The notes under the pieces: model-generated
What the model saw: the letters and a program-made list of their open reading frames with translations, nothing else
Told to the model about the DNA's origin: nothing
Databases searched by the model: none
Virus record (IMG/VR): IMGVR_UViG_3300045995_000345
Coordinates: 9,025 to 73,024 of that record
DNA from: a virus
Length of the DNA stretch: 64,000 bases
Strand: one strand, 5' to 3'
Translations under genes and position numbers: made by a program
Shown: in pieces, positions 926-59,158 of the stretch
How positions within the stretch are numbered: position 1 is the first letter of the stretch
Layout of the letters: each line of letters opens with the position of its first letter

Positions 926-1049
926 TTCTTTCTCAGCCAGCGGACGCGGCCGGGATGTTCTGGTAGTGCATCCATCGGTCTGGAACTCTGCGAAGGCTCC
1001 GGGATCCGCTCCTTTCATACGGACACCAGGAGCCGGCTGAACTTTTCGG

Positions 1050-1216
1050 TTGACAGAATTTAGATGCGTGTTTCATTGGAGACGTCCCGCAAATCAGGAC
1101 ACATCGACTAGACCCGATGAAACACACAACGACAGTTCCGAAATGCCAGCCAGCCGGGAGCAGCACGTCCTCGCTGTTCCGGTCTAGCGGTTGGCTGGCA
1201 TTTCAGAGTGGTCACC
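1050..1216 (+). promoter_or_regulatory. structured leader RNA, copy A (C4/CI antisense-like architecture)
   Basis: TTGACA at 1050; hairpin CATCG-ACTAGACC-CGATG at 1102-1119; 17-bp stem 1140-1156/1188-1204 with a bulge GGTCTAG (1181-1187) complementary to the loop; homologous to 46454-46617. Confidence 0.7.
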
Positions 1217-1897
1217 ATGAGTTCGAGATACGAGAAGAACTGCCCCATCTGCGGCAAGATCTTCGTAGTCGCACAAAATCTCTGCGCCTGTTCGCGTGAT
1301 TGCCGAAGACAGATGAACCAACGGTGGGCGAAGGCCAAGCTAGAGAAGCGACGACTCGCCACTCAGTCTCGGCAATCGGGCAGCCCATCAATCCAGACTT
1401 CCAGACCGTGCAAGAACTGCGGCCGCGACCGCAGGAAGAACAAGATCTTCTGCTGCGTATCCTGCTATGAATCGTTCCAGAAGAGGCCAAAGACTACGCA
1501 GGAACTGGCGGAGATAAAGCTCGCGAAGTCGGAGAAGTTCAGGCGCAAGCGGCAGGCCCGTGGTCAACGCGAGTTTGAGCTGAACCCCACCCGGTTCACC
1601 TACTACCACCACGTCTATCTAAACTCCGATCGGTGGGGGGAACTTCGGAAGCTCAAACTCCAAGAGCGCGATTGCTGCGCCAATTGCAGCAGCCGGACGA
1701 AGTTGCACGTCCATCACTGGGATTACCACAACCTGACCGATGTCCTCCTGATTGATCTGGAAGTCGTTTGCGAGCTGTGCCACAACGAGATTCACCGCCG
1801 GATCGACCGCTTTCCCAAGTCGGAGTGGACCAGATTGAGAGACCTGTTCAGGGAACTCGGAATGGACGGGCTTCCCATCAATCCGAAGCACCATTAG
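1217..1897 (+). CDS. HNH endonuclease with N-terminal Zn-ribbon motifs
   Basis: CPICG..CSRDC and CKNCG..CCVSC motifs; C-terminal CANC..LHVHHWDY..LEVVCELCHNEIH; alternative GTG start at 1208. Confidence 0.8.
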   Translation: MSSRYEKNCPICGKIFVVAQNLCACSRDCRRQMNQRWAKAKLEKRRLATQSRQSGSPSIQTSRPCKNCGRDRRKNKIFCCVSCYESFQKRPKTTQELAEIKLAKSEKFRRKRQARGQREFELNPTRFTYYHHVYLNSDRWGELRKLKLQERDCCANCSSRTKLHVHHWDYHNLTDVLLIDLEVVCELCHNEIHRRIDRFPKSEWTRLRDLFRELGMDGLPINPKHH

Positions 1898-1901
1898 AAA
1901 C

Positions 1902-2690
1902 TCAGTTTCCATCCTTGGGCAAATCAATTACAGCCGGCGCCGGCAGGTGACTCCTTCCATTTCCATTCGCCACCGTCACATTTCCGTCAACACGCATGTT
2001 GACCATTGGCGACAGCGGCGAGAACTTCGGGCTCCGTTTATTCTGGATCGCTTCCTTCTGCTCCGCGCGCCGCAACTCAATCATGGCTGCCGCGATTCCA
2101 GCCTGCCGGATCTTGTCGTAGGTATCGAGCATGAGGCCGTAGAGCGTGGCCCTGTCCTGCCTGAGCATCCTCAGCCTGACCAGCCTTTGGTCAAGGTTCT
2201 CTCCGGTCAGTGGATCCAAGGGTGCGGTATCGAGCAAGGCGATCCTCTCCGTTGTTGCCTTGGCTTCAGTCTGGAAACTCAGGTAGAGGGACAGGAGGCC
2301 ACCGCCAGTCATGGCGCCGATCTGCTTGAAGTGTTTGGCGAACAGGTCGGCTTGATTGATGGCGGTCTTGGCTACGTCTTCGGGAATTCCGATGGAGGTA
2401 AGAGCTTCTGCCGTCATGCAGACATTCTCCAAACGCTTCATTGAGGATTCAACGTCGCGAGCTAATGACGCTCCCGGATCTCTCGCATCCACCGCCGATG
2501 CTTTCTCAGCTCTGAGTTGATCGAAGACGGCCTTTAGCTTTGCGTTGTCCATGATCCGCAAGCGTAGCTTCTCCGGATTCCTTCCGAGCAATCTAGCCGC
2601 CCCCGCTATGGATCCAGACTGAAGCAAAGCCTCCCTTATCTGTAATTGCGTGGTTACTCTAGGAGCTTGCTCTGGTGTGGCGGTGTTCAT
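1902..2690 (-). CDS. Fis-type HTH/coiled-coil protein (regulator or displaced terminase small subunit)
   Basis: IREALLQSGSIAGAARLLGRNPEKLRLRI resembles an HTH; ATGA-coupled to the giant gene. Confidence 0.6.
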   Translation of the reverse strand: MNTATPEQAPRVTTQLQIREALLQSGSIAGAARLLGRNPEKLRLRIMDNAKLKAVFDQLRAEKASAVDARDPGASLARDVESSMKRLENVCMTAEALTSIGIPEDVAKTAINQADLFAKHFKQIGAMTGGGLLSLYLSFQTEAKATTERIALLDTAPLDPLTGENLDQRLVRLRMLRQDRATLYGLMLDTYDKIRQAGIAAAMIELRRAEQKEAIQNKRSPKFSPLSPMVNMRVDGNVTVANGNGRSHLPAPAVIDLPKDGN

Positions 2691-8600: not shown

Positions 8601-11600
8601 GTGATCATGTCGAGGATCTGATCCCTCTGACCATCACTCAACCCGCCGTCTTCGTGCAGACTCAAGATGACGCCAACCGCCTCCGCCTTCAGCGGCACAA
8701 GGGCGCGCATCTTCTCCGACATCGCGTCTAGAGTTGCTACGGAGGTGGGGCTTGGTTCAAGTCTTGCACTTGTTCCGGTCTCACTTGGGGCTTGCGCGGG
8801 TTGCGCTGCTGCCGGCGGCGTGCCTTGGCCAACGCCTGCGACAATCCCACCATCAGCAGCATTATCCCGTTGCGAATTTCCGGTCGCGCCTTCTGCAATG
8901 GCGGAGGAACTTCCAGCATTTGTGTTCTCATTGGAAAGAGCCTTTCTAACTCCATTCCAGTTCGTGATGATGGTTGGCAGTGTTTCATCCAACATTCGCT
9001 GGATCATTGCCCGGTCTTCGATGGAGTCGTAGGAGGCCGCAACGCTTGCCTGAAGTTCTTTCGCGAACTGCTGAATCAACTCGGGCGACGTAACGACGTG
9101 GTCCTTTTGAAACGCCACGATCTGCGCCACCATCGGCATGTTGTTCTTCACCCAATCAGCAAACCTGAGTTGCTCCTTCCGGTTCAACGCCTGCTCTGGT
9201 GTGAAGTTCCTCGCGTTGACGATGTCTCCGGACGCCGTCCTCACGTTGTCGGTTGAGTATCCGTAGGCGTCATCCCTTGCCTGCTTCAGTCCACCGAACT
9301 CGCCCTCGTAATCAGCCACGCTGCGGATGGCTCGCGCAAGCTGGTTGCGTGGCGACCGCAAGAGCATGGACGAATACGGCACGAACCCAGCCTCCAGCAA
9401 ATCAATCACCCCAACTGTGTCCTTGGCCCCATCACCAATGGCGAATCGGAATTGCAGGTTGGCAATGACTTTGTTCGCGCGGAGCTTCTTGCTCACCGCG
9501 TTCACGTCGCCCTTGGTCTTCTTCAGCGCCTTTCCGAGTTCCGTCAGCGTGACTGTCTTGGGTGAAGACTTCAACGCCTTGGCCGCTTCCTTTTTCGTAA
9601 TACCGAAACCCGCCGCCGCCTCTTCCAGCGTGTAGGTGATCGCCCTGTTGCGGTTGTAGGCCAGCGAAAGAATGACGCGGCCGGCCGGGGTGATCCAACC
9701 AGCAACCCGTCGGCTCAACGAAGAGGACTGCTTGCCCACCGCAACCTGCTTGCCCTTCTCACTTCTCTTGGCTGTGCCCACCTGGGACTGGGCAGTGAGC
9801 AACGTGCCGATCAGCTTCGCGGCGTATTCCTTCTCGCCCTGAGTCTTGGCTTCGTTGTAGAGCTTGTGAGCTTCAGACAGATCGTGACCGCCACCAGTGT
9901 CGTCCTTCGTGTCGTAGTAACCCGGGAGCTTGGCGATCTTGCGAGCGGCCTCTTCGCTGTCCAAAGTAGCCTGCGCATCAGAGGATTCGTCAGGCGTCAT
10001 TCCTGGCTCGTCACCAGACGTCGGATCTTCCACGCGGCCGAATGCGTTTTCGACTGCGGTGGATCCAGAATCATCAACGAGCGAATCACCATGCCCGCGT
10101 TGAGACGGATCTTCCGAAGGCTTGGCTGCATCCAGAGAACCATACTCGAACTCCACCGCTGCCGGCCCGATGGCTTGAACGATGGATTGCTCCTCCGCTT
10201 TGAAGTTGGCAATGGCACGCTCCAGCTTTGAGATGCTCAGGATCAGATCAGCGTGTCGGTCAACGAGCGCCTCGGCGTCCTTGTCAGCCTTCTTCAGCTC
10301 GGCAATGAGCGATTCGACCTGCTTGAGTTCAGCCTGCTGGGCAGCCAAGTCGGTCTTGAGATACTCCAGGTTCTTCTTGCCATCGTAGTTCTCTCCGAGC
10401 GCATCGACCTTGGCAACGACGTTGGCGGCGAAACCGAGAGCTTCAGGCTTCAGTGCTTCTTCGACTTTGCGTACTTCTTTGCCCACGACGGGAGCTTGTC
10501 CTTTGACTTCACCTTGGACGGGAGCTTGCTGAACGACGGTGTTTCCTTGGCCCACCGCTTGGCCCACGGTTGGTGCGTTGAGAATGCGAACTTCTGTTGC
10601 GAGGTGCTGAGGAATGGGGGCATTGGATTCCTTGGTTGGTGCTGACTGGCTGCGCGCTTGGATCTTGGCAGCCATCTCGGCGGGCCTGGGTTGGCGAGAC
10701 TGACTGAGCCGCTGAATGCGTGCGGCCATATCCGCTGGGCGCGGAGCCTGCGTCTTGAAGTACGTCTTGAGCGCGGCAACTGCGGCCTTGGGAGTTTCGG
10801 GAGGAGAAGCCTGTTGAGCCTCCGATGGAGGCGGTGCTTCCTTGGTAGCGAGCGCTGCGGGTGCAGCCGGCACAACAGGTGAAGGCGATTGGGCAACCTC
10901 AGCGTTGCGCGTCACGGTCGGGTCACGCATGGCTTCAGCGTAAACCATCAGGTGCGCTTCAACGGGCGTGCCAGCCGGGATCATCTGCGTGTCCACGGGA
11001 ACGAACGTAGCGCCAGCCTTGACGAACAGTTCGAGCTTGTTGCCCCCGTCCTTCTGCGGCGTCACCACGGAACGGAACAGCACCTTGCCCGTGTCATCCT
11101 TGGCTTCGAGGATGCGTGGTGTCAGCGGAACTCCCAGCTTGCGCGATTCGGCCCACGTCAACTGTTGGTTCACGTTGCGCTGCTTCACCACATCAGGAAT
11201 CGAGGCTTCTGTCTTGGGATCATATCGAAGCCCCAGCTTGGCAGCCATCTGTTGCAGGTCGGCGCGCGTGAGCGTGTCCTTATTTAGCAGTTCGGCTACA
11301 TCGCGAACCTCCGGGCTTCTCTGGTCTTCGGGAACGGACTGAACCAGATCCTTCGCGAACTGGTAGAGCGGCACCTTGGAGACGGCGGGGCGTTCAGCTT
11401 CAGCCGTAGCCGAAACCCCACCCGCACCAGTTTCGCTGGGAACGCTGGCTGGTGCGGGCGTTGATGTCTCGGTAACCGGAGGTGCTACTTGCAACTCTTG
11501 GGTCCCTTGACCTTGGGCATTTGCTTCTTCGCCATTGGGAGTCTCACCGCCTTTCTCGTTGGAAAGTGACTTTCCAAGTTCGTCGCTTCTGGCTTGAAGG

Positions 11601-13087
11601 ATCCTGGTCCACTCCTGATTGAAGATTGCTTTCGAGTCTGAGTTGAGTTTCAGGATCTCAAGCTCGACGGCGGGGTCGCCGGCAGCCTTGCGCTGCACCA
11701 GTAATGCGATGCCGGCCCTGTCAACATCGTAGATGTCCTTGGCTACGTCGCTCCCAATCGTCCCGGTCTTCAGCGCGTCCGGCGGCGGAGGCGGTTCGTT
11801 CGTCGCCTCCTTCTTGGGCGGGGGCTGCTGCTCTCCACGCTTCTTGCCTGTGAACAGTTCGGTAACGGCGGACGTGGCGCCACCGCCCATGGTCCCGGCG
11901 ATACCAGAGTTGATGATGTCATCCTTCTCCGCCTGATTCAGTGGAGCCCAAAGCTTGCCCTCGTCATGGTCATGCAGGAAAGCTCCGTAACGCTGGCCGG
12001 CAACGTCAACAAGCGATTGGAACGCCTCAGTGCTCCCTTCCCATGGCACCGTCTTGGCGACCTCTGGGGCGAGGCGTGTGACGTAGGCGTAAAACGGCTT
12101 CTTCAGAGGTTCAACCGCCGCGTCTGTCAGCTCGCGGCCGGCCCTGCCCATTGCCTTGCCCAACCGTCCGACGATGTAGGTGGGCAGGACTGTATCGGGG
12201 ACCGCCTTTATGCCACCACCCACCAAGGCGATGTTGGCCGCGTCATCCTGGCTGAGTTCGCCCTTGTTCACCTGATCCTGCAACTCCATGAACAACTCGC
12301 CGGAGTTCTGCTGCATGGACGCAGCGGCACCACCCGTGAGGTTGCCGATCATCTGGCCGACCGTTGCCGCCTGGCGAACCGTTGCTGCCCGCAGGAGTTC
12401 CTTGGCCGGAGCGCTGAGTGCGTCCTTCAGGATCGTGCCAGCTGCGTACTTCTCGATCTCACCCTTCAGTTCAGCCGACACCTTCGCCTTCACCAGCGCC
12501 TTGAGGGCTCCACGTTCAAACAACCCAGCCGCCGCGCCCGGAATCCCGCCCACGCCAGCACCAGTCGCCGCACCAATGGCGGCGCCCGCACCCGCCGCAA
12601 CCACGGACTCACCAATCGACGGCACCAAGTTGCCAAACTGGTTGGCCGCATAGAGCATCGCCGTGCGCGGCCCGCTCACGTCACGCCAGTTGGCCACTGC
12701 CGGCTGGTAGTAATCCGCCGCCTCTTGCTGTTGCTCCGCTGCCTTGCCGATCAGGGTCTTGGCGATGTTAGTCGCGCCTAACTTCTGCGCCACCATGCCG
12801 CCTGCCCCGTAGGCAAGCGCCTGAGTCTGGTCAATGCCCGCACCCAGAGAACCCTTGAACTCCTGCCACGTTGACGTGTTGGCAATGCGGTCCTCCTTCT
12901 GGATTCGGTCCCAGTCAGCGGCGAAGTCCGGGTACTCCTTGAACACGTCCCTGCCTTGGGCGGAATACTCGGGGGCCTGAGCGGCGTAGAGCCGTGTGAT
13001 GTCGTCATCCTTGAGGGCCGACATGTCCTCCGGATTCCAACCCAAAGGGTTGTTCTTCCGAACGAAGTCAACGAGTTGGTTGGGCAT
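2687..13087 (-). CDS. giant (3466 aa) ejection/internal virion or polyvalent protein with a zincin-like HExxH motif
   Basis: Last of three Ala/Gln/Gly-rich helical proteins after the GNAT, in the podovirus ejection-protein position; VVHEALH at 8096-8110 followed by DEFAVAVLSDPEF. Confidence 0.75.
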   Translation of the reverse strand: MPNQLVDFVRKNNPLGWNPEDMSALKDDDITRLYAAQAPEYSAQGRDVFKEYPDFAADWDRIQKEDRIANTSTWQEFKGSLGAGIDQTQALAYGAGGMVAQKLGATNIAKTLIGKAAEQQQEAADYYQPAVANWRDVSGPRTAMLYAANQFGNLVPSIGESVVAAGAGAAIGAATGAGVGGIPGAAAGLFERGALKALVKAKVSAELKGEIEKYAAGTILKDALSAPAKELLRAATVRQAATVGQMIGNLTGGAAASMQQNSGELFMELQDQVNKGELSQDDAANIALVGGGIKAVPDTVLPTYIVGRLGKAMGRAGRELTDAAVEPLKKPFYAYVTRLAPEVAKTVPWEGSTEAFQSLVDVAGQRYGAFLHDHDEGKLWAPLNQAEKDDIINSGIAGTMGGGATSAVTELFTGKKRGEQQPPPKKEATNEPPPPPDALKTGTIGSDVAKDIYDVDRAGIALLVQRKAAGDPAVELEILKLNSDSKAIFNQEWTRILQARSDELGKSLSNEKGGETPNGEEANAQGQGTQELQVAPPVTETSTPAPASVPSETGAGGVSATAEAERPAVSKVPLYQFAKDLVQSVPEDQRSPEVRDVAELLNKDTLTRADLQQMAAKLGLRYDPKTEASIPDVVKQRNVNQQLTWAESRKLGVPLTPRILEAKDDTGKVLFRSVVTPQKDGGNKLELFVKAGATFVPVDTQMIPAGTPVEAHLMVYAEAMRDPTVTRNAEVAQSPSPVVPAAPAALATKEAPPPSEAQQASPPETPKAAVAALKTYFKTQAPRPADMAARIQRLSQSRQPRPAEMAAKIQARSQSAPTKESNAPIPQHLATEVRILNAPTVGQAVGQGNTVVQQAPVQGEVKGQAPVVGKEVRKVEEALKPEALGFAANVVAKVDALGENYDGKKNLEYLKTDLAAQQAELKQVESLIAELKKADKDAEALVDRHADLILSISKLERAIANFKAEEQSIVQAIGPAAVEFEYGSLDAAKPSEDPSQRGHGDSLVDDSGSTAVENAFGRVEDPTSGDEPGMTPDESSDAQATLDSEEAARKIAKLPGYYDTKDDTGGGHDLSEAHKLYNEAKTQGEKEYAAKLIGTLLTAQSQVGTAKRSEKGKQVAVGKQSSSLSRRVAGWITPAGRVILSLAYNRNRAITYTLEEAAAGFGITKKEAAKALKSSPKTVTLTELGKALKKTKGDVNAVSKKLRANKVIANLQFRFAIGDGAKDTVGVIDLLEAGFVPYSSMLLRSPRNQLARAIRSVADYEGEFGGLKQARDDAYGYSTDNVRTASGDIVNARNFTPEQALNRKEQLRFADWVKNNMPMVAQIVAFQKDHVVTSPELIQQFAKELQASVAASYDSIEDRAMIQRMLDETLPTIITNWNGVRKALSNENTNAGSSSAIAEGATGNSQRDNAADGGIVAGVGQGTPPAAAQPAQAPSETGTSARLEPSPTSVATLDAMSEKMRALVPLKAEAVGVILSLHEDGGLSDGQRDQILDMITKARTPHGIETALDVAQEAVTPSRERQLDPDAMDAVDLDAQTITAPELLPDSVENVIFNLKRLAKSKLPATQHGLLSEMNIAALKKDYPTLAAALEKVAEAGGELAALAKFLAGRADVTEAKLTISPETQVGTPLGGSYSVANNEATVFPANARNVEDFHVSVVHEALHPFISRLLLRARNNPASLTVGEQEFVQKLHTLVEAAKAAGLTWQQSAEGLVGSDEFAVAVLSDPEFRDKLTKIALPPNFGDPTSLSLWDAFKRLVANLLKAVGLTSDKNVADEAYKLVTTLLQNYDEAAAARDKAWRVLRPNTGPMNADEMRYRQIKGLAGERTEISPTREYENEAKRMMAVTNEVAAARSKYFDALVKSGNNVTTTGKPVATEAEWIQNSFASLIQGGEDPAEDIKAAINSALTKDGTTGKPVSTSLTFADLEQTNEAPKAQMAALEIHYKDRTRWQARKALSDHEFGEGKLTERISESNLELYELTQNYQNLDVVTGQFLKSMKDALREATGTGAQSILEALGIKTGFKEALRIAAGAIEGNKIAFGDQLQALAELGIDYSTVGNVSLTSAGKVSLTPGDVQAAAAASANPNARNIAADPARLALALQFARRRPIAMDLLAVRTAYDDKGVQKTAINQMIKLAVSNKPDARALAVGQLSRVGTLFVHADRILKRLDTIKAENEKLLKQAAQLSQWDVEWHIISKIQAEEIRKLERMRDLEEGTFGEQSRQFKWVNNAVYLVPESNLTTEDDLFTKPEFRQTVQHGDNYSDANIQQNLTKIVSWMAEHPGSQGSGRFAFLERVVREAAGRQANSANENIQRGLGGWILRSMGDIGTRFRQHGTQTARAIEQQIVTHNNREQSLRNSINERLYYKVDELARAAMIATGIDNPVEFHANFYHNILGLFQSEQHLYDPRLTPEQQLDQFMATGKRFVQALPGMERKGAWEAVDKYIRANFAAAMDLQNVRRGIKLKIRDVMVGGRVIFRDVIGGVMSTMSRYTAGPAVALAMRMKGSEKLFWNTPWMGAETDDAGNPTPVEHVGLTKSAVALLHSKDRAALQAVLDARFTAPVNTTFVAELISKPGQTNFKGPEVGGVVDMAPHAQLRGAYQAATAGRADGTFDALKFAETLHADLGGSPDTLSDFVGQTMATFQHYMDELYKVAKVDEGDQGNDLRTIGRAFLDARKGEDFPPGWLNFRTYGHKDYANYIRVLAEQDAYGAGATDLKANLAKLQTELTLLADDFKAAEAIKTSNPALSKDYMENGLNGDRPGLRKMRENAVYNLEYAQKNEDVLFSLIRTHSGGGQSYQTLMDMVGVMSGFVLQGVTSAVSDHISLPDHAFRKFGFSKEAVSVLFGGYYKNYAFELMHSMWQAMSWEMRMNAENAKNTRLLNSGGAADLDSLTERRGWRSMLDRYRQQLGAEASLWAVAWRSTASPLRVPGEVVRAVTKRVNAAARVFLSTGVGKPKNVETAAATLKWWAPFSMNNIIMQRAAARTWLEFTNDGINKAALYFQYHPADAADPNFKFSAKTANFSRKNLSGLMLDDRAFKYFYTTLEKNGIQLEDAARKRLSGAEPLTFDQIRSVIALANTEVLLNTGITTRAPWTLNNTFGRIVSPLTGWALIKTADVVKSSREPEGRASLRAAASAATAFTLAIVPVTIAYAVMRKEYEKDIVGKAPNQLPFKLDENLPLALLDSFSRLGTFGIISEPVNSIFNVSTAREFSVDSRVFVASTIMNLGAVLTKLARQGPSNSTYASTWRQFIQAAGGTGYLQNFDAINNMLDLDNTERRIVERINVGNLIRVAGREQGLDLRIFRGSAAGMINAIPNPVKPWVGNMVLAAYVNDPAAFREAYSKALEVASLKAVTDPEVDPYADVAEAYERMNPLRSTFNKSPSAGEYQKMLASLGDSATEVSAAIRNFNAYGAQVRKSRANTGGLTPFFGTERRAVNIYGSSSMSGGGGGARDYRSIAAGFGR

Positions 13088-21639: not shown

Positions 21640-22224
21640 TTAATACACTAAAGGCGTGTCGGAGCGTTCTAAATGCGGCATGATCTTCCCCATCCTTGAG
21701 GGGTGTCTCAATTTCCTGAGTGCTTTCGTTTCGACCATCCTGATAGTTTCGGGAAACTTTCGGTAACGTGCTGCGATTTCCGCTAACGTCTTTCCCTCCC
21801 AAAATCTGGCTCTTATGACGGGTGCATGATAATCGCCTAATGATTCAACATTGGCTTCGATTGCCTTATCCAGCTCAGTTGTATCGTCGGGGCTGGGGGC
21901 TGGTAGCAACATTGCTTCCGAGCAGCCAAGCAGATTCTCCATTTCCACATCGGCTGTCTGTTCTATCTTAAACCCTCGCTTGAAACCTGCGAAAGATTCC
22001 GGCCATTCCGATAGGACATCTAAGTATTCTCCGGCTTCTCCGAAGGCTTTCTGAATTGCATCGGCTTGTTCTGGAAGCGGTCGCCTAATCAGGTTAATAA
22101 TCCTCCCGATTATGAATATCGAAAGCCCAGACTTCTCGGCGAGATCCTTTTGGGTCCAGTTCAACTTCTTCAGGAGCGCGTAAATGTTTCCGTGCTTGTA
22201 TCGCGTGACGGCGGTGATCTTCAT
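21640..22224 (-). CDS. XRE HTH fused to a sigma-70 region-4 domain
   Basis: WTQKDLAEKSGLS at the N-terminus; TLAEIAARYRKFPETIRMVETKALRKLRHP at the C-terminus. Confidence 0.8.
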   Translation of the reverse strand: MKITAVTRYKHGNIYALLKKLNWTQKDLAEKSGLSIFIIGRIINLIRRPLPEQADAIQKAFGEAGEYLDVLSEWPESFAGFKRGFKIEQTADVEMENLLGCSEAMLLPAPSPDDTTELDKAIEANVESLGDYHAPVIRARFWEGKTLAEIAARYRKFPETIRMVETKALRKLRHPSRMGKIMPHLERSDTPLVY

Positions 22225-45603: not shown

Positions 45604-46443
45604 ATGCGCTTCCTGCTCCCATTGATCCTGTGCTACAGCGCCAGCGCCGCTGACTTGATGGATGGCATCGTAAAGGTGGAGTCCGGGGGCAGGAACGGCG
45701 CCAGGGGAGACAAGGTCCACGGCGTTCCGCATTCACGCGGCAAGACCCAGATCCAGAAGGACGCGTGGAACGATGCCTGCAAGCGTCTGCATGTCAGGTG
45801 GCGCTGGGAAACGGACGCGCACGATCCAGCCAAGACCATGATCGTTTCACGCAACCACCTCGACTGGCTGCGAGTTCAGTTCAAGTCCGCGACCGGAAGA
45901 TCTCCCAGCGTTGCGGACGACTACGCACTCTGGAATCTGGGTTTCCAAGGGTACGCACGCCGGGGATTGCGCATTACGAATACCCCGAAGAGAACGCAGA
46001 GGGCTGCGTCTGAGATTTCTCCCACCGCGCTCCGGGTAACACCGACGGCAAGATTAGGGATGGCCGCAACTGCGCGGGAAGGCGCGGCCCCCAAACTCGT
46101 AACGGGTAAATGCGGTCGAACCATGACCAACAGCGAGGACAGAGGTGACAGCCGGGAAAGACCGGCAACCGTCCTACCCCTCCCGTCCGCCAACAACATC
46201 AAGGAGTCCGACCCAATCGGGGCGTTGGGGAACACAGACAACGCCATTCACAAACTCGGATCAAGGACGGGAGGCTCCCTTTCCCCCGCGCCCGCAGAGC
46301 TGGGATTTACTTCCAAACGTAAAACGCCCAGTGAAGCGAGCAAACCTGCCCAGCTTGTGCTGAAGCAGGGCGGGGCCACTTTCCATCCCGCGTTGGCGAC
46401 CAGCGAAACGGCCGACAAGGCGACAGTGCGGACCAGTCGCTAA
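45604..46443 (+). CDS. secreted lysozyme-fold (SLT/i-type-like) muramidase
   Basis: Signal peptide, VESGG..GD, G.TQI...W.DA and LWNLG; the last ~140 codons look non-protein-like. Confidence 0.65.
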   Translation: MRFLLPLILCYSASAADLMDGIVKVESGGRNGARGDKVHGVPHSRGKTQIQKDAWNDACKRLHVRWRWETDAHDPAKTMIVSRNHLDWLRVQFKSATGRSPSVADDYALWNLGFQGYARRGLRITNTPKRTQRAASEISPTALRVTPTARLGMAATAREGAAPKLVTGKCGRTMTNSEDRGDSRERPATVLPLPSANNIKESDPIGALGNTDNAIHKLGSRTGGSLSPAPAELGFTSKRKTPSEASKPAQLVLKQGGATFHPALATSETADKATVRTSR

Positions 46444-46453
46444 CGCGGGATGC

Positions 46454-46617
46454 TTGACTTCCTGAAATACTCAGTTACTCCTTGAGTGAGTCCGAAAGGA
46501 TTCACATCGACTCAACCCGGTGAAGACAGACACGACAATTCCGAACCTCCCACACGTTGGGGCAAGACGCCAGTCCTGCCCGGTTGAGCAGCGCGTGGGA
46601 GGTTCTGAGGTGTCACG
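46454..46617 (+). promoter_or_regulatory. structured leader RNA, copy B (C4/CI antisense-like architecture)
   Basis: TTGACT at 46454; CATCG-ACTCAACC-CGGTG at 46505-46522; stem 46543-46559/46589-46605 with bulge GGTTGAG at 46582-46588. Confidence 0.7.
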
Positions 46618-46806
46618 ATGAAGTTGATATTCAGCAAGCAGGAGATCGCGCAGGCGGTCGAAGTTTACTGGGGCGGCGAATTACTCAACGCGGCAGAGAA
46701 TTACACGGAGGGTGAGTGTGGTGTTTTTTACGACATGGAAACCGGGGAAATAACCGCTGAGATTGAGATCACCCAAAAGTCGTTGAGTGAAAGGAAGGCC
46801 GAATGA
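46618..46806 (+). CDS. small acidic hypothetical protein
   Basis: GAGGTG RBS; ATGA-coupled to the initiator. Confidence 0.6.
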   Translation: MKLIFSKQEIAQAVEVYWGGELLNAAENYTEGECGVFYDMETGEITAEIEITQKSLSERKAE

Positions 46807-47705
46807 GCGCCCCCGCTTCCTTCCCGTTCTACCCCGACGACTTCCTGGCCGGAACCATGGAGATGTCCACTGATGAGGTTGGAGCCTACATCCGGCTCCT
46901 CTCTCACCAATGGAACCGCGGTTCAATTCCGGTTCAAACCGAAAAGCAACAACGGTTGGCTGGGGGCTCAGTCTCGGCCGACGTAATTTCCAAGTTTGAG
47001 GTGTGTGAAGACGGCCTTCTCCGGAACGCGAGGATGGAGTTTGAGCGAGAGAAGCAATGTAAGTATCGTGATGCTCAAGCACTTAAGGGTCGCCTTAGTG
47101 GCCAGGCAAGGCGAACCCCGGTTGAACCCCGGTTGAACCCCGGTTCAGTTTTGGTTGGAACCCAATCGAACCCCCCCGTCCCCGTCCCCGTCCCCGTCCC
47201 AATTGTACAAATACCCAGCAAGCCGGGCGGTGGAGTTTCGGAATTACCGAAAGACGCAGAAGACATCGAGGCTCAGATCGACCAGCTCTACTCCGCCTAC
47301 CCGAAGCACGTCGGCGTAGCGAATGCGAAGAGGGCGATTCGGAAGGCATTGAAAAAGGCGACGTTTGAAGTCCTCTTCGAAGCCGTCACTGCCTTTGCAG
47401 TTTCCCAGGCCAGTAGGTCGGCGGAGACGAAGAAGTTCATTCCCGACCCGGCGACGTGGTTCAACGCGGAACGTTGGACAGACGACCGCACCACATGGAC
47501 GGTTGGGCAGAACGGCTCCACGGTCCCGCCCCACAAGCAGCTTGACGCGGTCAAGCTCTCGATCGAGACGCACCCCGCGAACCGGGAGTATGTCGGCTAC
47601 GACGAACGGAAGGTCACGCCAGAGTTGAAGACCCAGCTCTCCGACCTTCGGAAGGCGGCAGAGCAGTTGACGCTTCGGATCGCGAAAGGATCCATCCATG
47701 GGTAA
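46803..47705 (+). CDS. DUF1376/YdaU-like replication initiator
   Basis: FPFYPDDFLAGT..MS..EVGAYIRLL..QW..G; C-terminal YPKHVG..FIPDPATWFNAERWTD. Confidence 0.85.
   Translation: MSAPASFPFYPDDFLAGTMEMSTDEVGAYIRLLSHQWNRGSIPVQTEKQQRLAGGSVSADVISKFEVCEDGLLRNARMEFEREKQCKYRDAQALKGRLSGQARRTPVEPRLNPGSVLVGTQSNPPVPVPVPVPIVQIPSKPGGGVSELPKDAEDIEAQIDQLYSAYPKHVGVANAKRAIRKALKKATFEVLFEAVTAFAVSQASRSAETKKFIPDPATWFNAERWTDDRTTWTVGQNGSTVPPHKQLDAVKLSIETHPANREYVGYDERKVTPELKTQLSDLRKAAEQLTLRIAKGSIHG
47113..47145. repeat. iterons (GAACCCCGGTT x3), putative replication origin
   Basis: Three exact 11-bp tandem repeats inside the initiator gene. Confidence 0.7.
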
Positions 47706-54008: not shown

Positions 54009-54352
54009 GATTTTGCCTTTCTCGCTTCCTTCATCTCCACCTGCACCTGCTTCATCGCCGCGTAGTGACTCCCCTCCAGCTTCCCAGTCTTCAACATGTT
54101 CGCCTCCGCACGGCGCTCAACCTCCACGACGAATAGGTCCAACGCTTCCTCAAAACCAGGCACCGGCAACGATCGCACGTCCGGATGCTCTTCTCGCAAC
54201 ACGGAACTCCGCACAACCTCAGCCGAGTAGCTCCACGCGTTCCTATACCTCTGTTCCAACAATCCCCACGGTATAGGTTGCTCCATACCAAGGCGCGCGT
54301 AGAACGCTTCGTGATTCAACTCGCCCAACCGAAATTCAGCGGTCTTGCTCAT
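54005..54352 (-). CDS. hypothetical protein
   Basis: ATGA-coupled. Confidence 0.55.
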   Translation of the reverse strand: MSKTAEFRLGELNHEAFYARLGMEQPIPWGLLEQRYRNAWSYSAEVVRSSVLREEHPDVRSLPVPGFEEALDLFVVEVERRAEANMLKTGKLEGSHYAAMKQVQVEMKEARKAKS

Positions 54353-54930
54353 AGTTCCTCTGGTTTCATGTATGGCAGCCCAACAAACGCGAATACCTCA
54401 GCCTCCGATCCCATTGCGCGCGCCTCGCCGCTACCACTATTTGTAAATCCAGATCCATACGGATTCCACTTCCACCCGCGCTCCTGCGCCGCCATGCAGA
54501 TTCGAGTGTTGCTGTCCGCCGGCCCCGTCCGACACACCAGATAGTTCCACCAGTTCTCCGCCGTCGCCGCAAACAAGTCCACAGGCATGCCCGTAGCACA
54601 GTGGCGCATCAGCTTGTTCTTCGGCCCATACATCTCCGACCCATTCACGTTCTTACGCCTCTCCAACACCCCGGCCCTCTCCAATCCCGCAATCACTTCA
54701 TCCGCAAGATTCACCGTGATGCTCGCAAACATGTCCGCAGGATCAGCCCTCACCTCAGTCTTCCCAATGTAGAGTATCTCCACATCACCCACCGTCTCCT
54801 TCCGCCTACGCAACGAACCCGCAACGATAATCCGCTCACACGCCGGCCCCAGCACAGCGCACAGCTCGTCCGACACCGCAAGGCCAACAGCCCTGTCGTA
54901 TCGCTTCTTCTCTGTCGTTGTGCTTTCCAT
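54349..54930 (-). CDS. minimal DNA polymerase X-family nucleotidyltransferase
   Basis: AGSLRR.KETVGDVEIL, VDLF, RTG.A..N and SEAEVF..VGLPY..PE motifs. Confidence 0.85.
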   Translation of the reverse strand: MESTTTEKKRYDRAVGLAVSDELCAVLGPACERIIVAGSLRRRKETVGDVEILYIGKTEVRADPADMFASITVNLADEVIAGLERAGVLERRKNVNGSEMYGPKNKLMRHCATGMPVDLFAATAENWWNYLVCRTGPADSNTRICMAAQERGWKWNPYGSGFTNSGSGEARAMGSEAEVFAFVGLPYMKPEEL

Positions 54931-54940
54931 AGCTCCTCTC

Positions 54941-55699
54941 TCAATCCACCGGCAACGAATCCAAAGTTACTTCATCCTTCTGTACAGCTTCTTTAGAAAG
55001 ATGTTCTCCGGAGGACGGAACGTCCACTCTATCTCCTCCTCCGTAGCCCCCAAGCTCCGCAGCCGACATCGTATGTAAGGCTCGTCCGCCTTCATTCGCG
55101 CCTCGCTGGCTGCTATCTCCGCCCTCACCCTGTCGTTGTGAATCTCCTGCGGTGTCTTTGTCATATTGCTGATTTCCTTTCAAGCCAGCGCACTCAGCGT
55201 CCGGATGCCCAGTCGCCACCTCATACTTCTGCGCAAACGTCAATCCCCCACCCTGACCCATCACCTCCGCCATCGTCAGACGCTCCCTATTTGCCCCCGA
55301 ACCAGCAGCAGACTTCTGCGCCTTCGCCTTATCACGATGCCGCTGTTGAGCCTCCCTCAAATACTCCCTCCTGTCTGTAGCCTTCTTGATCTTGTCGTAA
55401 TACTTCCCATTCACCACCCGGTAAAGATACGCCCCCACCATCACCAGCTTCCTCCCTTCCTCCCTATCACTTCTACTCTCATGATCGGGAGCGCACATCT
55501 CACCTATGACCTTCACAATCTTCTTCACGTCCTCCCCGAGCAGGTAGCCCAGCAACACTGGATTCAACTCCACGCACACATCATCCATCTTCGAGTCATA
55601 CCTGTAGTGTGAAATCACGTACCCCCACACCGCAAAGAACGCACTCCCCTTCCCAACCATCGACCCCGTATACATCGACTCAAAGTGTCTTCCATACAT
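54941..55699 (-). CDS. phage replication-initiator-like (winged HTH) protein
   Basis: YG.HFESMY.GSM, PD..SRS...EGR and VVN..YY...RREY.RE.Q.R.R pattern; GGAGGGG RBS. Confidence 0.65.
   Translation of the reverse strand: MYGRHFESMYTGSMVGKGSAFFAVWGYVISHYRYDSKMDDVCVELNPVLLGYLLGEDVKKIVKVIGEMCAPDHESRSDREEGRKLVMVGAYLYRVVNGKYYDKIKKATDRREYLREAQQRHRDKAKAQKSAAGSGANRERLTMAEVMGQGGGLTFAQKYEVATGHPDAECAGLKGNQQYDKDTAGDSQRQGEGGDSSQRGANEGGRALHTMSAAELGGYGGGDRVDVPSSGEHLSKEAVQKDEVTLDSLPVD
54967..55164 (-). CDS. small protein nested in the tail of the initiator-like gene
   Basis: 65 aa charged helical ORF overlapping a low-complexity tail; AAGGAA upstream. Confidence 0.45.
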   Translation of the reverse strand: MTKTPQEIHNDRVRAEIAASEARMKADEPYIRCRLRSLGATEEEIEWTFRPPENIFLKKLYRRMK

Positions 55700-55762
55700 A
55701 TAATCAATATCCCCTCCGTGTACTTGAACGCTGGGATCGTGCCCCCTGGTGAGCAGTTATTC

Positions 55763-55843
55763 CCGGCCTGTGCCCACTCCGCGAGACGCACTTGCGTTTC
55801 AGGTTCGTTACACCCTCGTCAGTCGCGAGTATATTGTGGCCGG
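55763..55843 (-). ncRNA. hammerhead ribozyme (type I)
   Basis: Minus strand reads CGCGA-CUGACGA-GGGU gUAACGA ACCU-GAAA-CGC AAGU GCG-UC-UCGCG; outer CCGGCC/GGCCGG stem. Confidence 0.85.
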
Positions 55844-56349
55844 ACAGATGCAGCCTGCACAGGGGCACGCTTGGCTGCCCACGATCCCAACGTTCTTTTT
55901 TCAGTGCTTGCACGCTCACACCCATAACCCAACTCACCGCGCCACGTCAACAACTTTGTTTATCGTAATCTTGAATAATCAGAAGTAATCCACCATAAGG
56001 CCAGGTACACTTTTGTAATGCCTTCAGATGCAGCTTCAGCTTCACCCTCAGACCCATCTCAGAACCCAATTCCCAGGAGCCAGAAAGTTTCGATGAGGGG
56101 TGTATTAATTACGCCGCGCCAGTTTGGCTTCCCACCCCTCCCCGCCATCCCTCGCCTTGGAACGTGTTAAACCCTTAGCACAAAGGGTTTACACAAGCGG
56201 CTCAAATGACGACCTAAAATATCGTCGTTTTGACCCCTCCTAGAAACTCACTTTCTAAGCGTGTTCTGCGTACTTGTGCGTCCATAACTCCTACGTAGAG
56301 ACAATTCCCCTGCAATTGCCGGTAGGGATTTGGAAACTTGGTTTCCAAG

Positions 56350-57056
56350 GGTGTGGTTTGCCGGTGTTGCAACCTTTTCCCCTCTTTGTGAGCGGCACAT
56401 CCAAAGCCCGGAACTGGATAGGGTGACTGGAAACCCGAACAAGGCCAGTGTTTGAAAAACATCCCATTGCCGGGTCATGGCCGGCACGGATCGAGTGCGA
56501 GTGGACTGCTAAAGTGTTCCACGCTTGCGAGTAAACCTTGCGAGTCAATGCTGGCGGGTCCGACTCCTTCGTCATGAAGGAGCGACTCTTAAGCCTGAAA
56601 GGGCGAAGCGGTTCAGTGCCGCGCCAAGCTAACCTAAACGCTGGCCTAAGGTCGCCAGTGGAGAAATGGGACGATTGACTCCGGGGATATACATTGCGGG
56701 ATAGAGTGTGGCGGTTCGATGAACTGGCGCGTAAAAGTGCGGTTTAAGGTCAACACTAGTGTTTGCTGTGTGCGTAATGGCACTCTGGCAAGCTAGTGCA
56801 ATGGCTACCGTTCACGGTACTAGTGCGGTGTATTATTCCCTACCGTGTTAAGCGTGGAAATCGTTCAAACCTACTCCCCTGAAAGCATAGATACAGGGCG
56901 AAACAACTTGATGCCGGGTTACGTACTGTGACCCGTTATGTCCGCTTGGTAATGTGAAGGCAAGCGGACGCGAGAGAAAGTCTTTTTGGGAACGCGGGAT
57001 TGGTATGTTCTACCGTTCCGCGTTCCCTTTGACTTTCGCATAGTGCGCTCTGGTTT
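56350..57056 (+). ncRNA. candidate large structured ncRNA
   Basis: No credible ORF; more than 10 consecutive hairpins with G-U pairs on the + strand. Confidence 0.55.
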
Positions 57057-57130
57057 TTGGAAAGCTACTTTCCAAATCCTAAACCACAACATACTTCAGA
57101 GCGTGCTACCACGAAAGGCAAAGTACTATC

Positions 57131-57541
57131 ATGAGCGAATCAACTACTACCATCGCATTGGCGCAAGCCAAGGCTGCATTCATTCTGGCGATCACTGGTT
57201 TCACTGGTGCCATGGTGACGGTTCTGGATGCGATGAATTCGGCGATTGCGTTGGCCAAAAAGGCTGGCGGCGACCGGAAGACGGTGAAGAGTTGGGCGAA
57301 GGATTTCTCGGTGTCCCGCCAATGGATCAACAGGATTCTGTCCATGCCGGAGAACTTCGGGCCGGACGCGAAACCTCGCGGCAAGAAAACCGCGAACAGT
57401 ACGGCTACGGCCAAGTCTCTGTGCAAGCGGGCATTGAAGGCTTGCAAGAATGACGCGGTGAAGGCGGCGGAGCTTCTCATGCAAGCGGCGGAGATGTCGG
57501 AAGCGGTGGCGGCCGAAGAGGATTCGGAAGGCGGGGAGTAA
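57131..57541 (+). CDS. HTH-like DNA-binding protein (candidate palindrome binder)
   Basis: TVKSWAKDFSVSRQWINRILS resembles an HTH; flanked by palindromes at 57058 and 57595. Confidence 0.6.
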   Translation: MSESTTTIALAQAKAAFILAITGFTGAMVTVLDAMNSAIALAKKAGGDRKTVKSWAKDFSVSRQWINRILSMPENFGPDAKPRGKKTANSTATAKSLCKRALKACKNDAVKAAELLMQAAEMSEAVAAEEDSEGGE

Positions 57542-57661
57542 TCCGCTTCACGGTTCTCTGGCAAGGCGACCTTGCGTAGCAGGGGGCGAGGGTTTGGAAA
57601 GTAGTTTCCAAAGCTCGCCCCTTGAAGCGTGCGGTCAAACATCAACGGAAAGGATTAGGCA

Positions 57662-57838
57662 ATGCGTATCGAATTCATGCTTGGGCGGTGGCTTTTCACT
57701 GCTCAGATTTTCCACCGTTACCAGTGCGGCGTGTGGATTGGGCGAGAGATCGGGGAAACGTGGAGTGGCTTGGCGTTCATTCCCGGCTTCATGAAACACC
57801 GGCGGAGTCCGTTCAAGCGGACTTGGATTTGCACGTAG
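57662..57838 (+). CDS. small hypothetical protein (58 aa)
   Basis: MRIEFMLGRWLFTAQIFHRYQCG...; AAAGGA upstream. Confidence 0.5.
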   Translation: MRIEFMLGRWLFTAQIFHRYQCGVWIGREIGETWSGLAFIPGFMKHRRSPFKRTWICT

Positions 57839-58078
57839 AGACCCCGCGGTTCCGCCCTTTGGATTTGGAAAGCGAGTTTCCAAAGGGCGGGCTCGTGCGG
57901 TCAAGAGGGGATCTTGCTTATTGCACAAGGCTGGATTAGCACGGCCGGGACATCGGCAGATGAGCTACCGGAGAACTACCACAACGAGAAGCGACCGTCT
58001 GCTGGCGGTCAAAGGGACGCTATGCGACCGGTGCAACGGAGCGGGCTGGCGTTCTGAGAGATGAAAGGGAAGGCTACC

Positions 58079-58237
58079 ATGTATCGAGTTGAGTACAGAG
58101 TGAACGGCGTGCTGTATCGCGCCGTGGTGCACGCGGCGAACGTGCATGACGTGATCGACAGGGAGTTGGCGCTTGTGCGCCACCTTGGGCGGTCTGGTGC
58201 GCGGAAGGCGTTCGTGAGCGCACGGAGGCTGGCGTGA
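58079..58237 (+). CDS. small hypothetical protein (52 aa)
   Basis: MYRVEYRVNGVLYRAVVHA...; GTGA overlap with the next gene. Confidence 0.55.
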   Translation: MYRVEYRVNGVLYRAVVHAANVHDVIDRELALVRHLGRSGARKAFVSARRLA

Positions 58238-58431
58238 ATACCTGCCGTCATTGTCTGGGCGCCAAGTGCATCCATTGCCAGCGTGAGGCTGGTGACCTGC
58301 CGCCGAACAGGGCGACAAGGCGCGCGGACAGGGCGCGGACAGAGCTTGCGAGCCTGCTCGGTCTGGACATTCCCGGTCGGGACGTCCGGGCGTCTGGTCC
58401 TGATCATGTCAGGAGCAGGCTGTTTGCGTAG
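58234..58431 (+). CDS. small Zn-finger protein
   Basis: CRHC...CIHC. Confidence 0.5.
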   Translation: MNTCRHCLGAKCIHCQREAGDLPPNRATRRADRARTELASLLGLDIPGRDVRASGPDHVRSRLFA

Positions 58432-58687
58432 GGGTTGCGCGTCGCCATGCGAAGTGTGAGCGCGTGGCGAGGCGCGGCTGCCATGCCGCGATTGAAGGGA
58501 AGGTGAGCAATATGTGGCGATAACAGAACCAGCGTGATTACGCCCCGCCCTAAGCTGGAACGTGCGATTATGAGGCGCGCGAAAAGCCGGCTTAGGGTGG
58601 TGACGTGGCCACAACCACGGCTTTGACATTTGGAAACTGACTTTCCAAAGTCTCAAGGCTCAACTCAACCAAGAAAGACAGAATACC

Positions 58688-59158
58688 ATGATCGTAGTGA
58701 CCCAGTACGAAGGCTTCGACCTTCTCAACCTGCCGAATCCCGATCCGAGTCTGAAAAAGGATGGCAACCCTCGGCGTCCGATTACCGCAGGCTGCAAGAA
58801 GATCCGCAACATCGTGAAGCACGGCGAGCTGGCCCGCGACTTCTACGATGACACCTTGGTGGATGCGGTGCTGTCGCATCCGGCTGAGGCTGCCGAATTC
58901 CTGGCGGCTTACGACAAGCCGAAAGAACCGAAGCCGGCCAAGGGCAGCAAGGGCACGCCCAAGGCCAAGGAAACGCCAGCCAAGGCATCGGAAGCGCCGT
59001 CTGGGGCTTCGGCTCGGTTTGTGCCGACGATCGCTCCTGCGGCGACGGTGGCGCCTGCGTTGGCCCCTCCCGTGAGTCTGCCGCCGGCTGGAACCTTCAC
59101 CGTGGCGGAACGGCTGGCTGCCCTGAAGGCCAAGTTGCAGGCTCGGGCGACGGTGTGA
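58688..59158 (+). CDS. hypothetical protein with a Lys/Ala/Pro-rich tail
   Basis: 156 aa, between two palindromes. Confidence 0.65.
   Translation: MIVVTQYEGFDLLNLPNPDPSLKKDGNPRRPITAGCKKIRNIVKHGELARDFYDDTLVDAVLSHPAEAAEFLAAYDKPKEPKPAKGSKGTPKAKETPAKASEAPSGASARFVPTIAPAATVAPALAPPVSLPPAGTFTVAERLAALKAKLQARATV

What the first reader, a model, noticed from the sequence alone, without database searches (positions are those of the whole stretch)
56350..57056. ~700-nt densely structured non-coding region bracketed by two palindromes: candidate large ncRNA
Seen in sequence: there is no credible ORF, and helices are back to back. Examples are TGCCGG/CCGGCA (56468-56486), CTTGCGAG-TAAAC-CTTGCGAG (56524-56544, needs two G-U pairs), CTCCTTC/GAAGGAG (56564-56582), GCCT-GAAA-GGGC (56593-56604), TACCG-TTCA-CGGTA (56806-56819), CGGGTTAC/GTGACCCG (56915-56935), GTCCGCTTG/CAAGCGGAC (56940-56969) and GGGAACGCGGGA/TTCCGCGTTCCC (56988-57027). 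The G-U wobbles point to a + strand RNA. The region lies between the palindromes at 56331 and 57058. Established knowledge: phages encode large ncRNAs of this size class (GOLLD, ROOL). I could not match this one to either by eye, so it may be a new class.
Basis: partly seen in the sequence, partly recalled or inferred. Interest (0 to 1): 0.8.

Follow-up and report, generated by a model that had tools for sequence, protein, structure and literature searches.

The report
Orphan structured non-coding phage RNA candidate
The longest gene-free stretch of a novel 73-kb river phage folds unusually well on one strand, as a large non-coding RNA would, but no relatives were found, so its structure and role remain untested.

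Summary
All listed helices are at the stated coordinates. 55597-57217 is the longest low-coding run of the 73-kb virus record. The 707 nt fold better than shuffles (z -5.6 on +, -3.8 on -). The two inner domains are stable on the + strand only: z -4.7 and -3.5 against -1.2 and -0.2. That points to an RNA read rightwards rather than a DNA structure.

No Rfam family matches, GOLLD and ROOL included. An RNA library holds contigs over 56618-56879. That strain differs at 7 of 47 sites in the predicted linker and at 1 of 155 in the adjoining hairpin domain.

Two corrections:
- The bracketing palindromes belong to a family of about 24 copies across the genome, so they are not marks of this element.
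- Structure continues left of the first palindrome, at 56086-56248.

Every search for homologues failed, so covariation could not be tested. The few strain variants do not support the predicted pairs.

Verdict: a plausible orphan large ncRNA, or a structured first unit of the rightward gene block. It is unproven.

The parts
55700..57130 (.). Whole non-coding stretch. It lies between the leftward gene block (last gene 54941-55699, - strand) and the first rightward gene (57131-57541, + strand).
   Evidence: Six-frame codon-usage scan is negative. It is the longest low-coding run of the genome. ORF list.
56350..57056 (+). The reported 707 nt: candidate non-coding RNA body, read on the + strand.
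   Evidence: MFE -282.5 kcal/mol, z -5.61 on + against -3.84 on -. Top-ranked against native genome windows. 34 of 242 MFE pairs are G-U.
56330..56348 (.). Left bracketing palindrome TTGGAAAC-TTG-GTTTCCAA. It is the first copy of the motif series that runs along the rightward block.
57057..57075 (.). Right bracketing palindrome TTGGAAAG-CTA-CTTTCCAA, 55 nt upstream of the ATG at 57131.
56438..56652 (+). Domain 1: a multi-branch domain closed by the 12-nt long-range helix 56442-56453 / 56636-56647. It contains the hairpins at 56468-56486, 56524-56544, 56564-56582 and the GAAA-loop hairpin at 56593-56604.
   Evidence: z -4.71 on + (0 of 200 shuffles as good) against -1.20 on - (28 of 200). The closing helix is inverted repeat I7.
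56680..56845 (+). Domain 2: a long branched hairpin in which 13 of 61 pairs are G-U. It is nearly invariant in the strain seen in RNA library X5.
   Evidence: z -3.52 on + (1 of 200) against -0.20 on - (87 of 200). G-U count. One listed difference in 155 nt of 56694-56848, against 7 in 47 nt just upstream.
56895..57040 (+). Domain 3: three near-perfect hairpins. The last one (56988-57027) is followed by TTTGACTTT, which makes it terminator-like on the + strand.
   Evidence: z -6.41 on + and -6.50 on -, so symmetric. A variant contig in run X3 replaces 56986-57027 with 83 other letters. The terminator reading is inference.
56086..56248 (.). A further structured domain left of the first palindrome and outside the reported interval. 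It is closed by the 16-nt helix 56086-56101 / 56233-56248.
   Evidence: z -5.66 on + and -3.67 on -. The closing helix is inverted repeat I3.

Best explanation
The region is the non-coding first unit of the phage's rightward (+ strand) gene block. It would be transcribed rightwards into a highly structured RNA of about 0.7 kb, or up to about 1 kb if transcription starts left of the first palindrome.

The RNA has two G-U-dependent domains (56438-56652 and 56680-56845) and a 3' cluster of perfect hairpins. The last of these (56988-57027, followed by a T-rich tract) would end or stabilise the transcript. The flanking copies of the phage's dispersed hairpin signal TTGGAAA-N5-TTTCCAA would mark unit boundaries, as promoters or as processing sites, as they seem to do before most downstream rightward genes.

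I take the product to be a stable structured RNA that acts as RNA, for example as a scaffold or as a decoy for a host or phage protein, rather than through a peptide.

Shown: the absence of coding signal, the excess structure, its dependence on the + strand, the absence of any Rfam match, the presence of part of it in an RNA library, and the uneven conservation between strains.

Inferred: the transcript ends, the role of the motif, and the function.
For: - No coding signal across 55630-57070 in any of six frames, and it is the longest such run in the genome.
- Folding z -5.61 for the whole region on +.
- Strand-specific domain stability: z -4.71 and -3.52 on + against -1.20 and -0.20 on -. 34 of 242 MFE pairs are G-U.
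- Among 145 genome positions, windows 56477 and 56977 rank 2nd and 3rd for + over - excess structure. Window 56477 (+) is the most structured of 290.
- Contigs of an RNA library (X5) cover 56618-56764 and 56747-56879 at about 95-98% identity.
- In that strain, listed differences fall at 7 of 47 positions in 56647-56693, which is mainly the predicted linker but includes 56692 and 56693 in domain 2's outer stem. They fall at 1 of 155 positions in 56694-56848. Fisher p = 1.7e-4.
- The motif copies form a series along the rightward block, mostly 9-55 nt upstream of start codons, and this unit comes first.
- The syntenic low-coding stretch of the nearest full-length relative, G001, shows no comparable structure, so low coding density alone does not produce such z-scores.
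Against: - No homologue was found, so there is no covariation support at all.
- Strain variants do not support the fold. Of 12 listed variant positions, 7 are paired in the MFE fold, and only 2 of those keep the pair (both G-C to G-U) while 5 break it. Two of the breaks come from a low-depth, divergent X3 contig.
- No sigma-70-like promoter was found on the + strand near 56300-56400. The nearest + strand matches are at 55675-55704 and 55807-55835.
- The terminator scan did not call the 56988-57027 hairpin.
- The X5 contigs carry no strand information, and an RNA library can contain DNA.
- Excess + strand structure continues into 57.0-58.7 kb, where small genes lie. High structure may therefore be a property of the whole early transcript rather than of one discrete RNA.
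Confidence: 0.45

Rival explanations
1. It is a regulatory leader or switch region rather than an independent RNA. The 1.4 kb would hold the divergent promoters and operators of the two gene blocks, and the structure would belong to long 5' leaders that control mRNA stability, attenuation or translation of the first genes.
For: - It lies exactly at the divergence of the leftward and rightward blocks.
- It is flanked by palindromes of a kind a dimeric DNA-binding protein could recognise.
- The first rightward protein (57131-57541) has a helix-turn-helix-like stretch by eye, with no family hit.
- + strand structure continues into the downstream small-gene region.
- The phage encodes a tyrosine recombinase and an XRE-type HTH protein, so it may be temperate.
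Against: - 700-1000 nt of dense, domain-organised structure is far more than known leaders need.
- A second motif copy and a strong hairpin separate it from the first gene.
- The XRE-type repressor candidate lies about 34 kb away, at window 22027-22185.
- No Peptidase_S24 repressor was found.
Confidence: 0.25
2. It is non-functional spacer or decayed sequence, and its hairpins have no selected role.
For: - It is an orphan: no homologue in any collection searched.
- Strain variants break 5 of the 7 predicted pairs they touch.
Against: - z-scores of -3.5 to -6.4 for four separate domains.
- Top rank among native genome windows.
- Strand asymmetry.
- Strongly uneven strain divergence, 7 of 47 against 1 of 155.
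- The low-coding stretch of relative G001 is not structured.
Confidence: 0.12
3. It is a replication origin. The form could be transcription-primed, with a structured non-coding transcript serving as primer in the manner of ColE1 RNA II (recalled).
For: - The cumulative GC skew reaches its minimum at about 56200-56500.
- It is non-coding.
- A PolX-like gene, DnaB and RecT lie within 2-14 kb.
Against: - The skew turn coincides with the switch in gene orientation, so it is not independent evidence.
- No DnaA-box match at up to 1 mismatch inside the region; there are 9 in the window, all elsewhere, against 6.5 expected.
- No iterons or tandem repeats in 56070-57300.
- No AT-rich stretch; the lowest GC is 0.48.
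Confidence: 0.08
4. It is an invertible DNA segment. A 708-bp non-coding cassette flanked by 23-nt inverted repeats would be flipped by a recombinase to redirect transcription between the two blocks.
For: - Arms 56326-56348 and 57057-57079 are 87% complementary.
- It sits between divergent gene blocks.
- A tyrosine recombinase is encoded at G000:C1:8334-8831.
Against: - The arms are simply two copies of a 24-member palindrome family.
- The recombinase is far away and looks like an ordinary integrase.
- No strand-changing joint appeared in three DNA runs, although contigs are poor at showing one.
- Inversion would not explain structure that depends on the + strand.
Confidence: 0.03

Closest known systems
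GOLLD and ROOL large ornate RNAs of phages and prophages
   Same: The size class is similar (hundreds of nt). The element is carried by a phage, has no ORF, and has several domains built from back-to-back helices. From the paper search I saw only the listing and the start of the abstract of PMC12286853.
   Different: No match to any Rfam model at gathering score (whole window) or at E<=10 (55900-57300). No tRNA genes in the window; that these RNAs often neighbour tRNAs is recalled. No homologues, so no conserved consensus and no evidence of multimer-forming motifs.
Small immunity or antisense RNAs processed from early leader transcripts of temperate phages (P4 CI RNA, P1 c4 RNA; recalled)
   Same: A non-coding RNA at the 5' end of an early operon of a possibly temperate phage, perhaps released by processing at flanking hairpins.
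   Different: Those RNAs are under 100 nt and pair with defined targets. This one is about 700 nt. The only complementarities to neighbouring genes are 10-15-nt imperfect inverted repeats (I4, I5, I9, I14, I18), which I judged to be at chance level without testing them.
ColE1 RNA II type primer transcripts (recalled)
   Same: A structured non-coding transcript several hundred nt long, whose fold matters on one strand.
   Different: No origin features were found. No antisense partner is evident. The context is a phage, not a plasmid.
For the bracketing motif only: dispersed phage regulatory repeats such as mycobacteriophage L5 stoperators, T7 intergenic RNase III hairpins and N4 hairpin promoters (all recalled)
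   Same: Many copies of one short signal, mostly between early genes and upstream of start codons.
   Different: This motif is a 7-8-bp palindrome with a 3-5-nt centre, and copies also lie inside late genes. Extended outer stems are significant at only 3 of 24 sites. The four related genomes I scanned whole for repeated palindromes (G001, G003, G004, G006) have no such family, and five related records lack this motif. Its function was not determined.

Membership tests
GOLLD RNA (Rfam) | Match to the family covariance model at or above its gathering score | tested here: not met
   cmscan of the whole window gave 0 matches at gathering. cmscan of 55900-57300 gave nothing for this family at E<=10.
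ROOL RNA (Rfam) | Match to the family covariance model at or above its gathering score | tested here: not met
   as for GOLLD.
Any other of the 4227 Rfam 15 families (riboswitches, ribozymes, group I/II introns, 6S, tmRNA, RNase P, OLE, HEARO, raiA and the rest) | Covariance-model match | tested here: not met
   One search gave none. One search gave 9 matches, all at E>=1.1 and far below gathering scores (snoRNA, miRNA and lncRNA models, which are chance hits). ARAGORN found 0 tRNA or tmRNA genes.
Structured non-coding RNA (generic) | Thermodynamic stability beyond shuffles and beyond the genome background, specific to one strand | tested here: met
Structured non-coding RNA (generic) | Compensatory base changes among homologues | not testable with these tools
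   No homologue was found. Strain variants are too few and do not support the pairs: 2 kept and 5 broken.
Structured non-coding RNA (generic) | A transcript of the predicted strand and ends | tested here: inconclusive
   Contigs of RNA library X5 cover 56618-56879. Contigs give no strand, ends or level, and DNA carry-over cannot be excluded.
Replication origin (DnaA- or iteron-type) | Clustered DnaA boxes or iterons, together with an AT-rich unwinding element | tested here: not met
Invertible promoter segment | Both orientations present in a population | tested here: inconclusive
   Inverted repeats are present and a tyrosine recombinase is encoded. No strand-changing joint appeared in the contigs of 3 DNA runs, which could easily miss one.

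The most novel reading that the evidence does not exclude
This is the founding member of a new class of large (about 0.7-1 kb), multi-domain phage RNA. It would be made as the first, non-coding unit of the early transcript and released between two copies of a phage-specific hairpin signal. It would act as a stable RNA machine or decoy during takeover of the host, and it is unrelated in sequence and fold to GOLLD, ROOL or any Rfam family.
Probability: 0.25. Interest if true: 0.75.

Novelty: new variant of a known kind. Interest (0 to 1): 0.5.

Why it matters
Large structured RNAs of phages such as GOLLD and ROOL are few, and their functions are still open. A further, unrelated example at a defined position, as the first unit of an early gene block in a phage lineage with almost no annotated genes, would widen that class. 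Its placement between copies of a dispersed hairpin signal would also give a handle on how such RNAs are made.

The case currently rests on thermodynamics, strand asymmetry and one RNA-library observation from a single lineage. Its present value is as a well-defined candidate for RNA-seq, structure probing and deletion, not as a discovery.

Tried and rejected
**Known families.** Rfam gave nothing at gathering score over the whole window or at E<=10 over 55900-57300. ARAGORN found 0 genes.

**Homologue hunts, all negative.**
- blastn against 50,697 phage records: no match.
- Neighbour proteins against viral contigs: 0 relatives for the 136-aa protein and 0 for the 252-aa protein.
- The 136-aa protein against 5.8 billion proteins: only itself.
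- Relatives by terminase (11 loci): the region was sought in the five records behind L003, L006, L007, L010 and L012, which gave only 17-23-nt chance matches. None of the five holds the motif.
- Relatives by the PolX-like gene (7 loci): they share only that gene. The region is absent from the 5 whole records behind L252-L256. G006 shares only 6 genes with this phage.
- Exact-word scans with five short stretches of the conserved block:
  - viral contigs: 0 and 0;
  - genome contigs: 0 and 0;
  - metagenome contigs: 108 stretches, none extending beyond 22-27 nt, so all chance.
- The motif scan of viral contigs gave 118 single chance hits, none related to this genome.

**Strain variants as a covariation test.** Of the 7 variant positions that are paired in the MFE fold, 2 keep the pair and 5 break it. 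This gives no support.

**Cover in the runs.** RNA run X5 shows no cover of the flanks 55000-56617 and 56880-58500, apart from one 63-nt piece with 12 mismatches. Runs X2 and X4 have holes inside the region.

**The motif.**
- Extended outer stems are significant at only 3 of 24 sites (mean z -0.31), so they are not a general feature.
- 57884-58629 is not a second ncRNA paralogue. It has no sequence similarity to the region, and it contains plausible small ORFs.

**Other checks.**
- The syntenic low-coding region of G001 (35.8-38.4 kb) is not structured.
- No reverse transcriptase or serine recombinase is encoded in the genome.
- I did not build a covariance model from the single sequence, because no plausible target sequence was held.

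Full report
**Setting.** The window is bases 9025-73024 of a 73,024-bp IMG/VR virus record (linear, CheckV completeness 93%). The phage is poorly annotated.
- Recognisable genes include a large terminase, RecT, DnaB and an AAA ATPase.
- A 3466-aa ORF has no Pfam, PHROG or PDB match.
- A tyrosine recombinase lies just outside the window, and an XRE-type HTH protein lies at 22027-22185.
- Near-identical DNA occurs in four riverine metagenome runs, one of which may be the source of the window, and a small share occurs in one soil RNA library.

The region is non-coding.
- A codon-usage log-odds scan trained on the 16 longest ORFs is negative in all six frames from about 55630 to 57070.
- 55597-57217 is the longest low-coding run in the genome, with 17 windows against 9 for the next.
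- None of the 10 internal or adjacent ORFs of 41-94 aa that I scanned hit Pfam at E<=0.1.

The true gene-free stretch is therefore 55700-57130, about twice the reported interval.

**Structure.** The 707 nt fold to -282.5 kcal/mol on the + strand (z -5.61) and -226.9 on the - strand (z -3.84), each against 20 dinucleotide shuffles.

As a control that keeps native sequence properties, I folded 707-nt windows every 500 nt on both strands (290 folds) and regressed MFE on GC and G+U content. The target + strand has a residual of -37 (5 of 290 as low or lower). The overlapping window at 56477 (+) is the most negative of all, at -52. The - strand is unremarkable, at -11.

Domain by domain, with 200 shuffles each:

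| Domain | z on + (shuffles as good) | z on - (shuffles as good) |
|---|---|---|
| 56438-56652 | -4.71 (0 of 200) | -1.20 (28 of 200) |
| 56680-56845 | -3.52 (1 of 200) | -0.20 (87 of 200) |
| 56895-57040 | -6.41 | -6.50 |

- The third domain consists of perfect palindromes, which is why it is symmetric.
- 34 of the 242 MFE pairs are G-U, and 13 of 61 in the second domain.
- A structure that exists on only one strand because it uses G-U pairs is what RNA-level selection predicts and DNA-level selection does not.
This is the main positive result.

**Two corrections to the picture.**

First, the palindromes are not boundaries peculiar to this element.
- TTGGAAA-N3-9-TTTCCAA occurs 9 times exactly in the window, with 0 expected.
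- A slightly relaxed pattern finds 24 sites in the genome.
- In the rightward gene block they lie between genes, mostly 9-55 nt upstream of start codons.
- In the leftward late block they lie inside genes, with degenerate ends.
- The copy at 56330 is the first of the series along the rightward block, which places the 707 nt as the first, non-coding, unit of that block. This placement is inference.
- Outer stems that extend the hairpin are significant at only 3 of 24 sites.
- The four related genomes scanned whole for repeated palindromes have no such family, and the five terminase-related records scanned for this motif lack it.
- I could not decide whether the motif is a promoter, a processing site, a terminator or an operator.

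Second, strong structure also lies left of the first palindrome.
- Domain 56086-56248 gives z -5.66 on + and -3.67 on -.
- Excess + strand structure continues to about 58.7 kb, where plausible small ORFs lie.

**Evidence from other samples.** Laying four runs on 55000-58500 showed that RNA library X5 holds two 151-nt contigs covering 56618-56764 (7 differences and 1 insertion) and 56747-56879 (2 differences).
- The listed differences fall at 7 of 47 positions in 56647-56693. This is mainly the predicted linker between the two domains, but it includes two positions in domain 2's outer stem.
- They fall at only 1 of 155 positions in 56694-56848, which covers most of domain 2. Fisher p = 1.7e-4.
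- That fits selective constraint on the domain, although a recombination mosaic would give the same pattern.
- Contigs say nothing about strand, ends or abundance, and DNA can be present in an RNA library, so this is only a weak hint of transcription.
- A variant contig in DNA run X3 replaces the 56986-57027 hairpin with 83 other letters. Contigs of both X3 and X5 diverge from the window right after 56879, where the window has a short loop sequence.
- As a covariation test the variants fail. Of 12 listed positions, 7 are paired in the MFE fold, and 2 keep the pair through G-C to G-U while 5 break it.

**Known families.** Rfam 15 gives no match at gathering score over the window. A permissive scan of 55900-57300 gives only chance-level hits at E>=1.1. 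This excludes GOLLD, ROOL and every other curated family at the sensitivity of their models. No tRNA or tmRNA was found.

**Homologues.** All routes failed.
- Phage GenBank records gave no match.
- The two flanking proteins have no relatives in viral contigs.
- The 136-aa neighbour has no relative among 5.8 billion proteins.
- Terminase-based relatives share the structural module at 25-73% amino-acid identity but not this part of the genome. They have no DNA match.
- The PolX-like neighbour (54349-54930; Pfam palm and thumb) has 79-80% identical copies in other phage contigs. Those contigs share nothing else nearby.
- Exact-word scans of viral, metagenome and genome collections returned nothing beyond chance.
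- The syntenic low-coding region of the nearest full-length relative is not structured.

The element is an orphan in the data available, and covariation, the decisive test, cannot be run.

**Alternatives.**
- Classical origin: unsupported. No DnaA-box match within the region, no iterons or tandem repeats in 56070-57300, and no AT-rich stretch. The GC-skew minimum there coincides with the change in gene orientation.
- Inverton: suggested by the 23-nt inverted arms and an encoded tyrosine recombinase. It is weakened because the arms belong to a 24-copy family and because inversion would not explain strand-specific structure. No inversion joint was seen.
- Long structured leader or switch region: the most serious rival, because the structure spreads beyond the bracket and into the downstream small-gene region.
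- Non-functional DNA: unlikely given four independently significant domains and the uneven strain divergence.

**Verdict.** The reading as a large + strand ncRNA is plausible (about 0.45) but rests on thermodynamics, strand asymmetry and one RNA-library observation. If real, it would be a new family within the known kind of large structured phage RNAs. Supplementary files of papers were not consulted. The literature was used only for context, from the listing and abstract starts. Statements about N4, L5, T7, P4, P1 and ColE1 are recalled, not tested.

Noticed in passing
Genome-wide. Window 56330, 57057, 57594, 57865, 58630, 59162, 59700, 60119, 60987, 62641, 11559 and others, plus G000:C1:464, 3610 and 7058.: A dispersed palindrome family, TTGGAAA(S)-N3-(S)TTTCCAA. 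There are 9 exact copies in the window against 0 expected, and 24 sites at up to 1 mismatch in the genome. Copies lie between genes in the rightward block and inside genes in the late block. One degenerate copy sits at the convergent gene junction at 1895. Its function is undetermined, and the four related genomes checked have no such family.
   Followed up: partly
window 54349-54930 (-): A minimal 193-aa family-X (Pol beta-like) protein with palm and thumb domains only. Copies 79-80% identical occur in otherwise unrelated phage contigs (L252, L253), which suggests a horizontally mobile gene.
   Followed up: partly
window 2687-13087 (-): A 3466-aa ORF with no Pfam, PHROG or PDB match. ESM Atlas gives only weak leads (scores 0.78-0.86) to viral clusters that carry LPD38 or LPD39 domains of large polyvalent proteins. 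Homologues at 25-35% identity exist in relatives G001 and G004.
   Followed up: partly
window 56086-56248: A separate 163-nt structured domain left of the first palindrome, closed by a 16-nt helix. It gives z -5.66 on + and -3.67 on -.
   Followed up: yes
G000:C1:8334-8831 (+), outside the window; window 22027-22185 (-): A tyrosine recombinase (Phage_integrase, 59.7 bits) and an XRE-type HTH protein, so the phage may be temperate. A low-coding run at window 787-1417, which the structured 707-nt window starting at 977 overlaps, lies about 1 kb downstream of the recombinase gene and could be an attachment region.
   Followed up: no
window 57541-58690: A stretch with weak coding signal that holds plausible small ORFs: ATG 57662 (58 aa), ATG 58061 (58 aa), and GTG 58234 (65 aa, with two CxxC pairs). 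It also holds a structured non-coding tail at about 58300-58700, with z -3.7 to -4.1 on +.
   Followed up: partly
window 45977-47183 (+): The second most structured set of + strand windows in the genome (residuals -47.9 and -33.3). It overlaps a 323-aa ORF with a weak codon score (0.051) and a low-coding run at 46327-46687.
   Followed up: no
window 56880-56884 and 56986-57027: Strain variation seen in contigs. Contigs of X3 and X5 diverge from the window right after 56879, where the window has a short loop sequence. One X3 contig replaces the large 3' hairpin with 83 other letters.
   Followed up: partly
G006 (L261, L264): about 60, 69546 and 70709: This unrelated 73-kb phage, which shares the PolX-like gene, carries three copies of a repeated block. 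The last two copies are about 1.16 kb apart near one contig end, and the third copy is at the other end.
   Followed up: no
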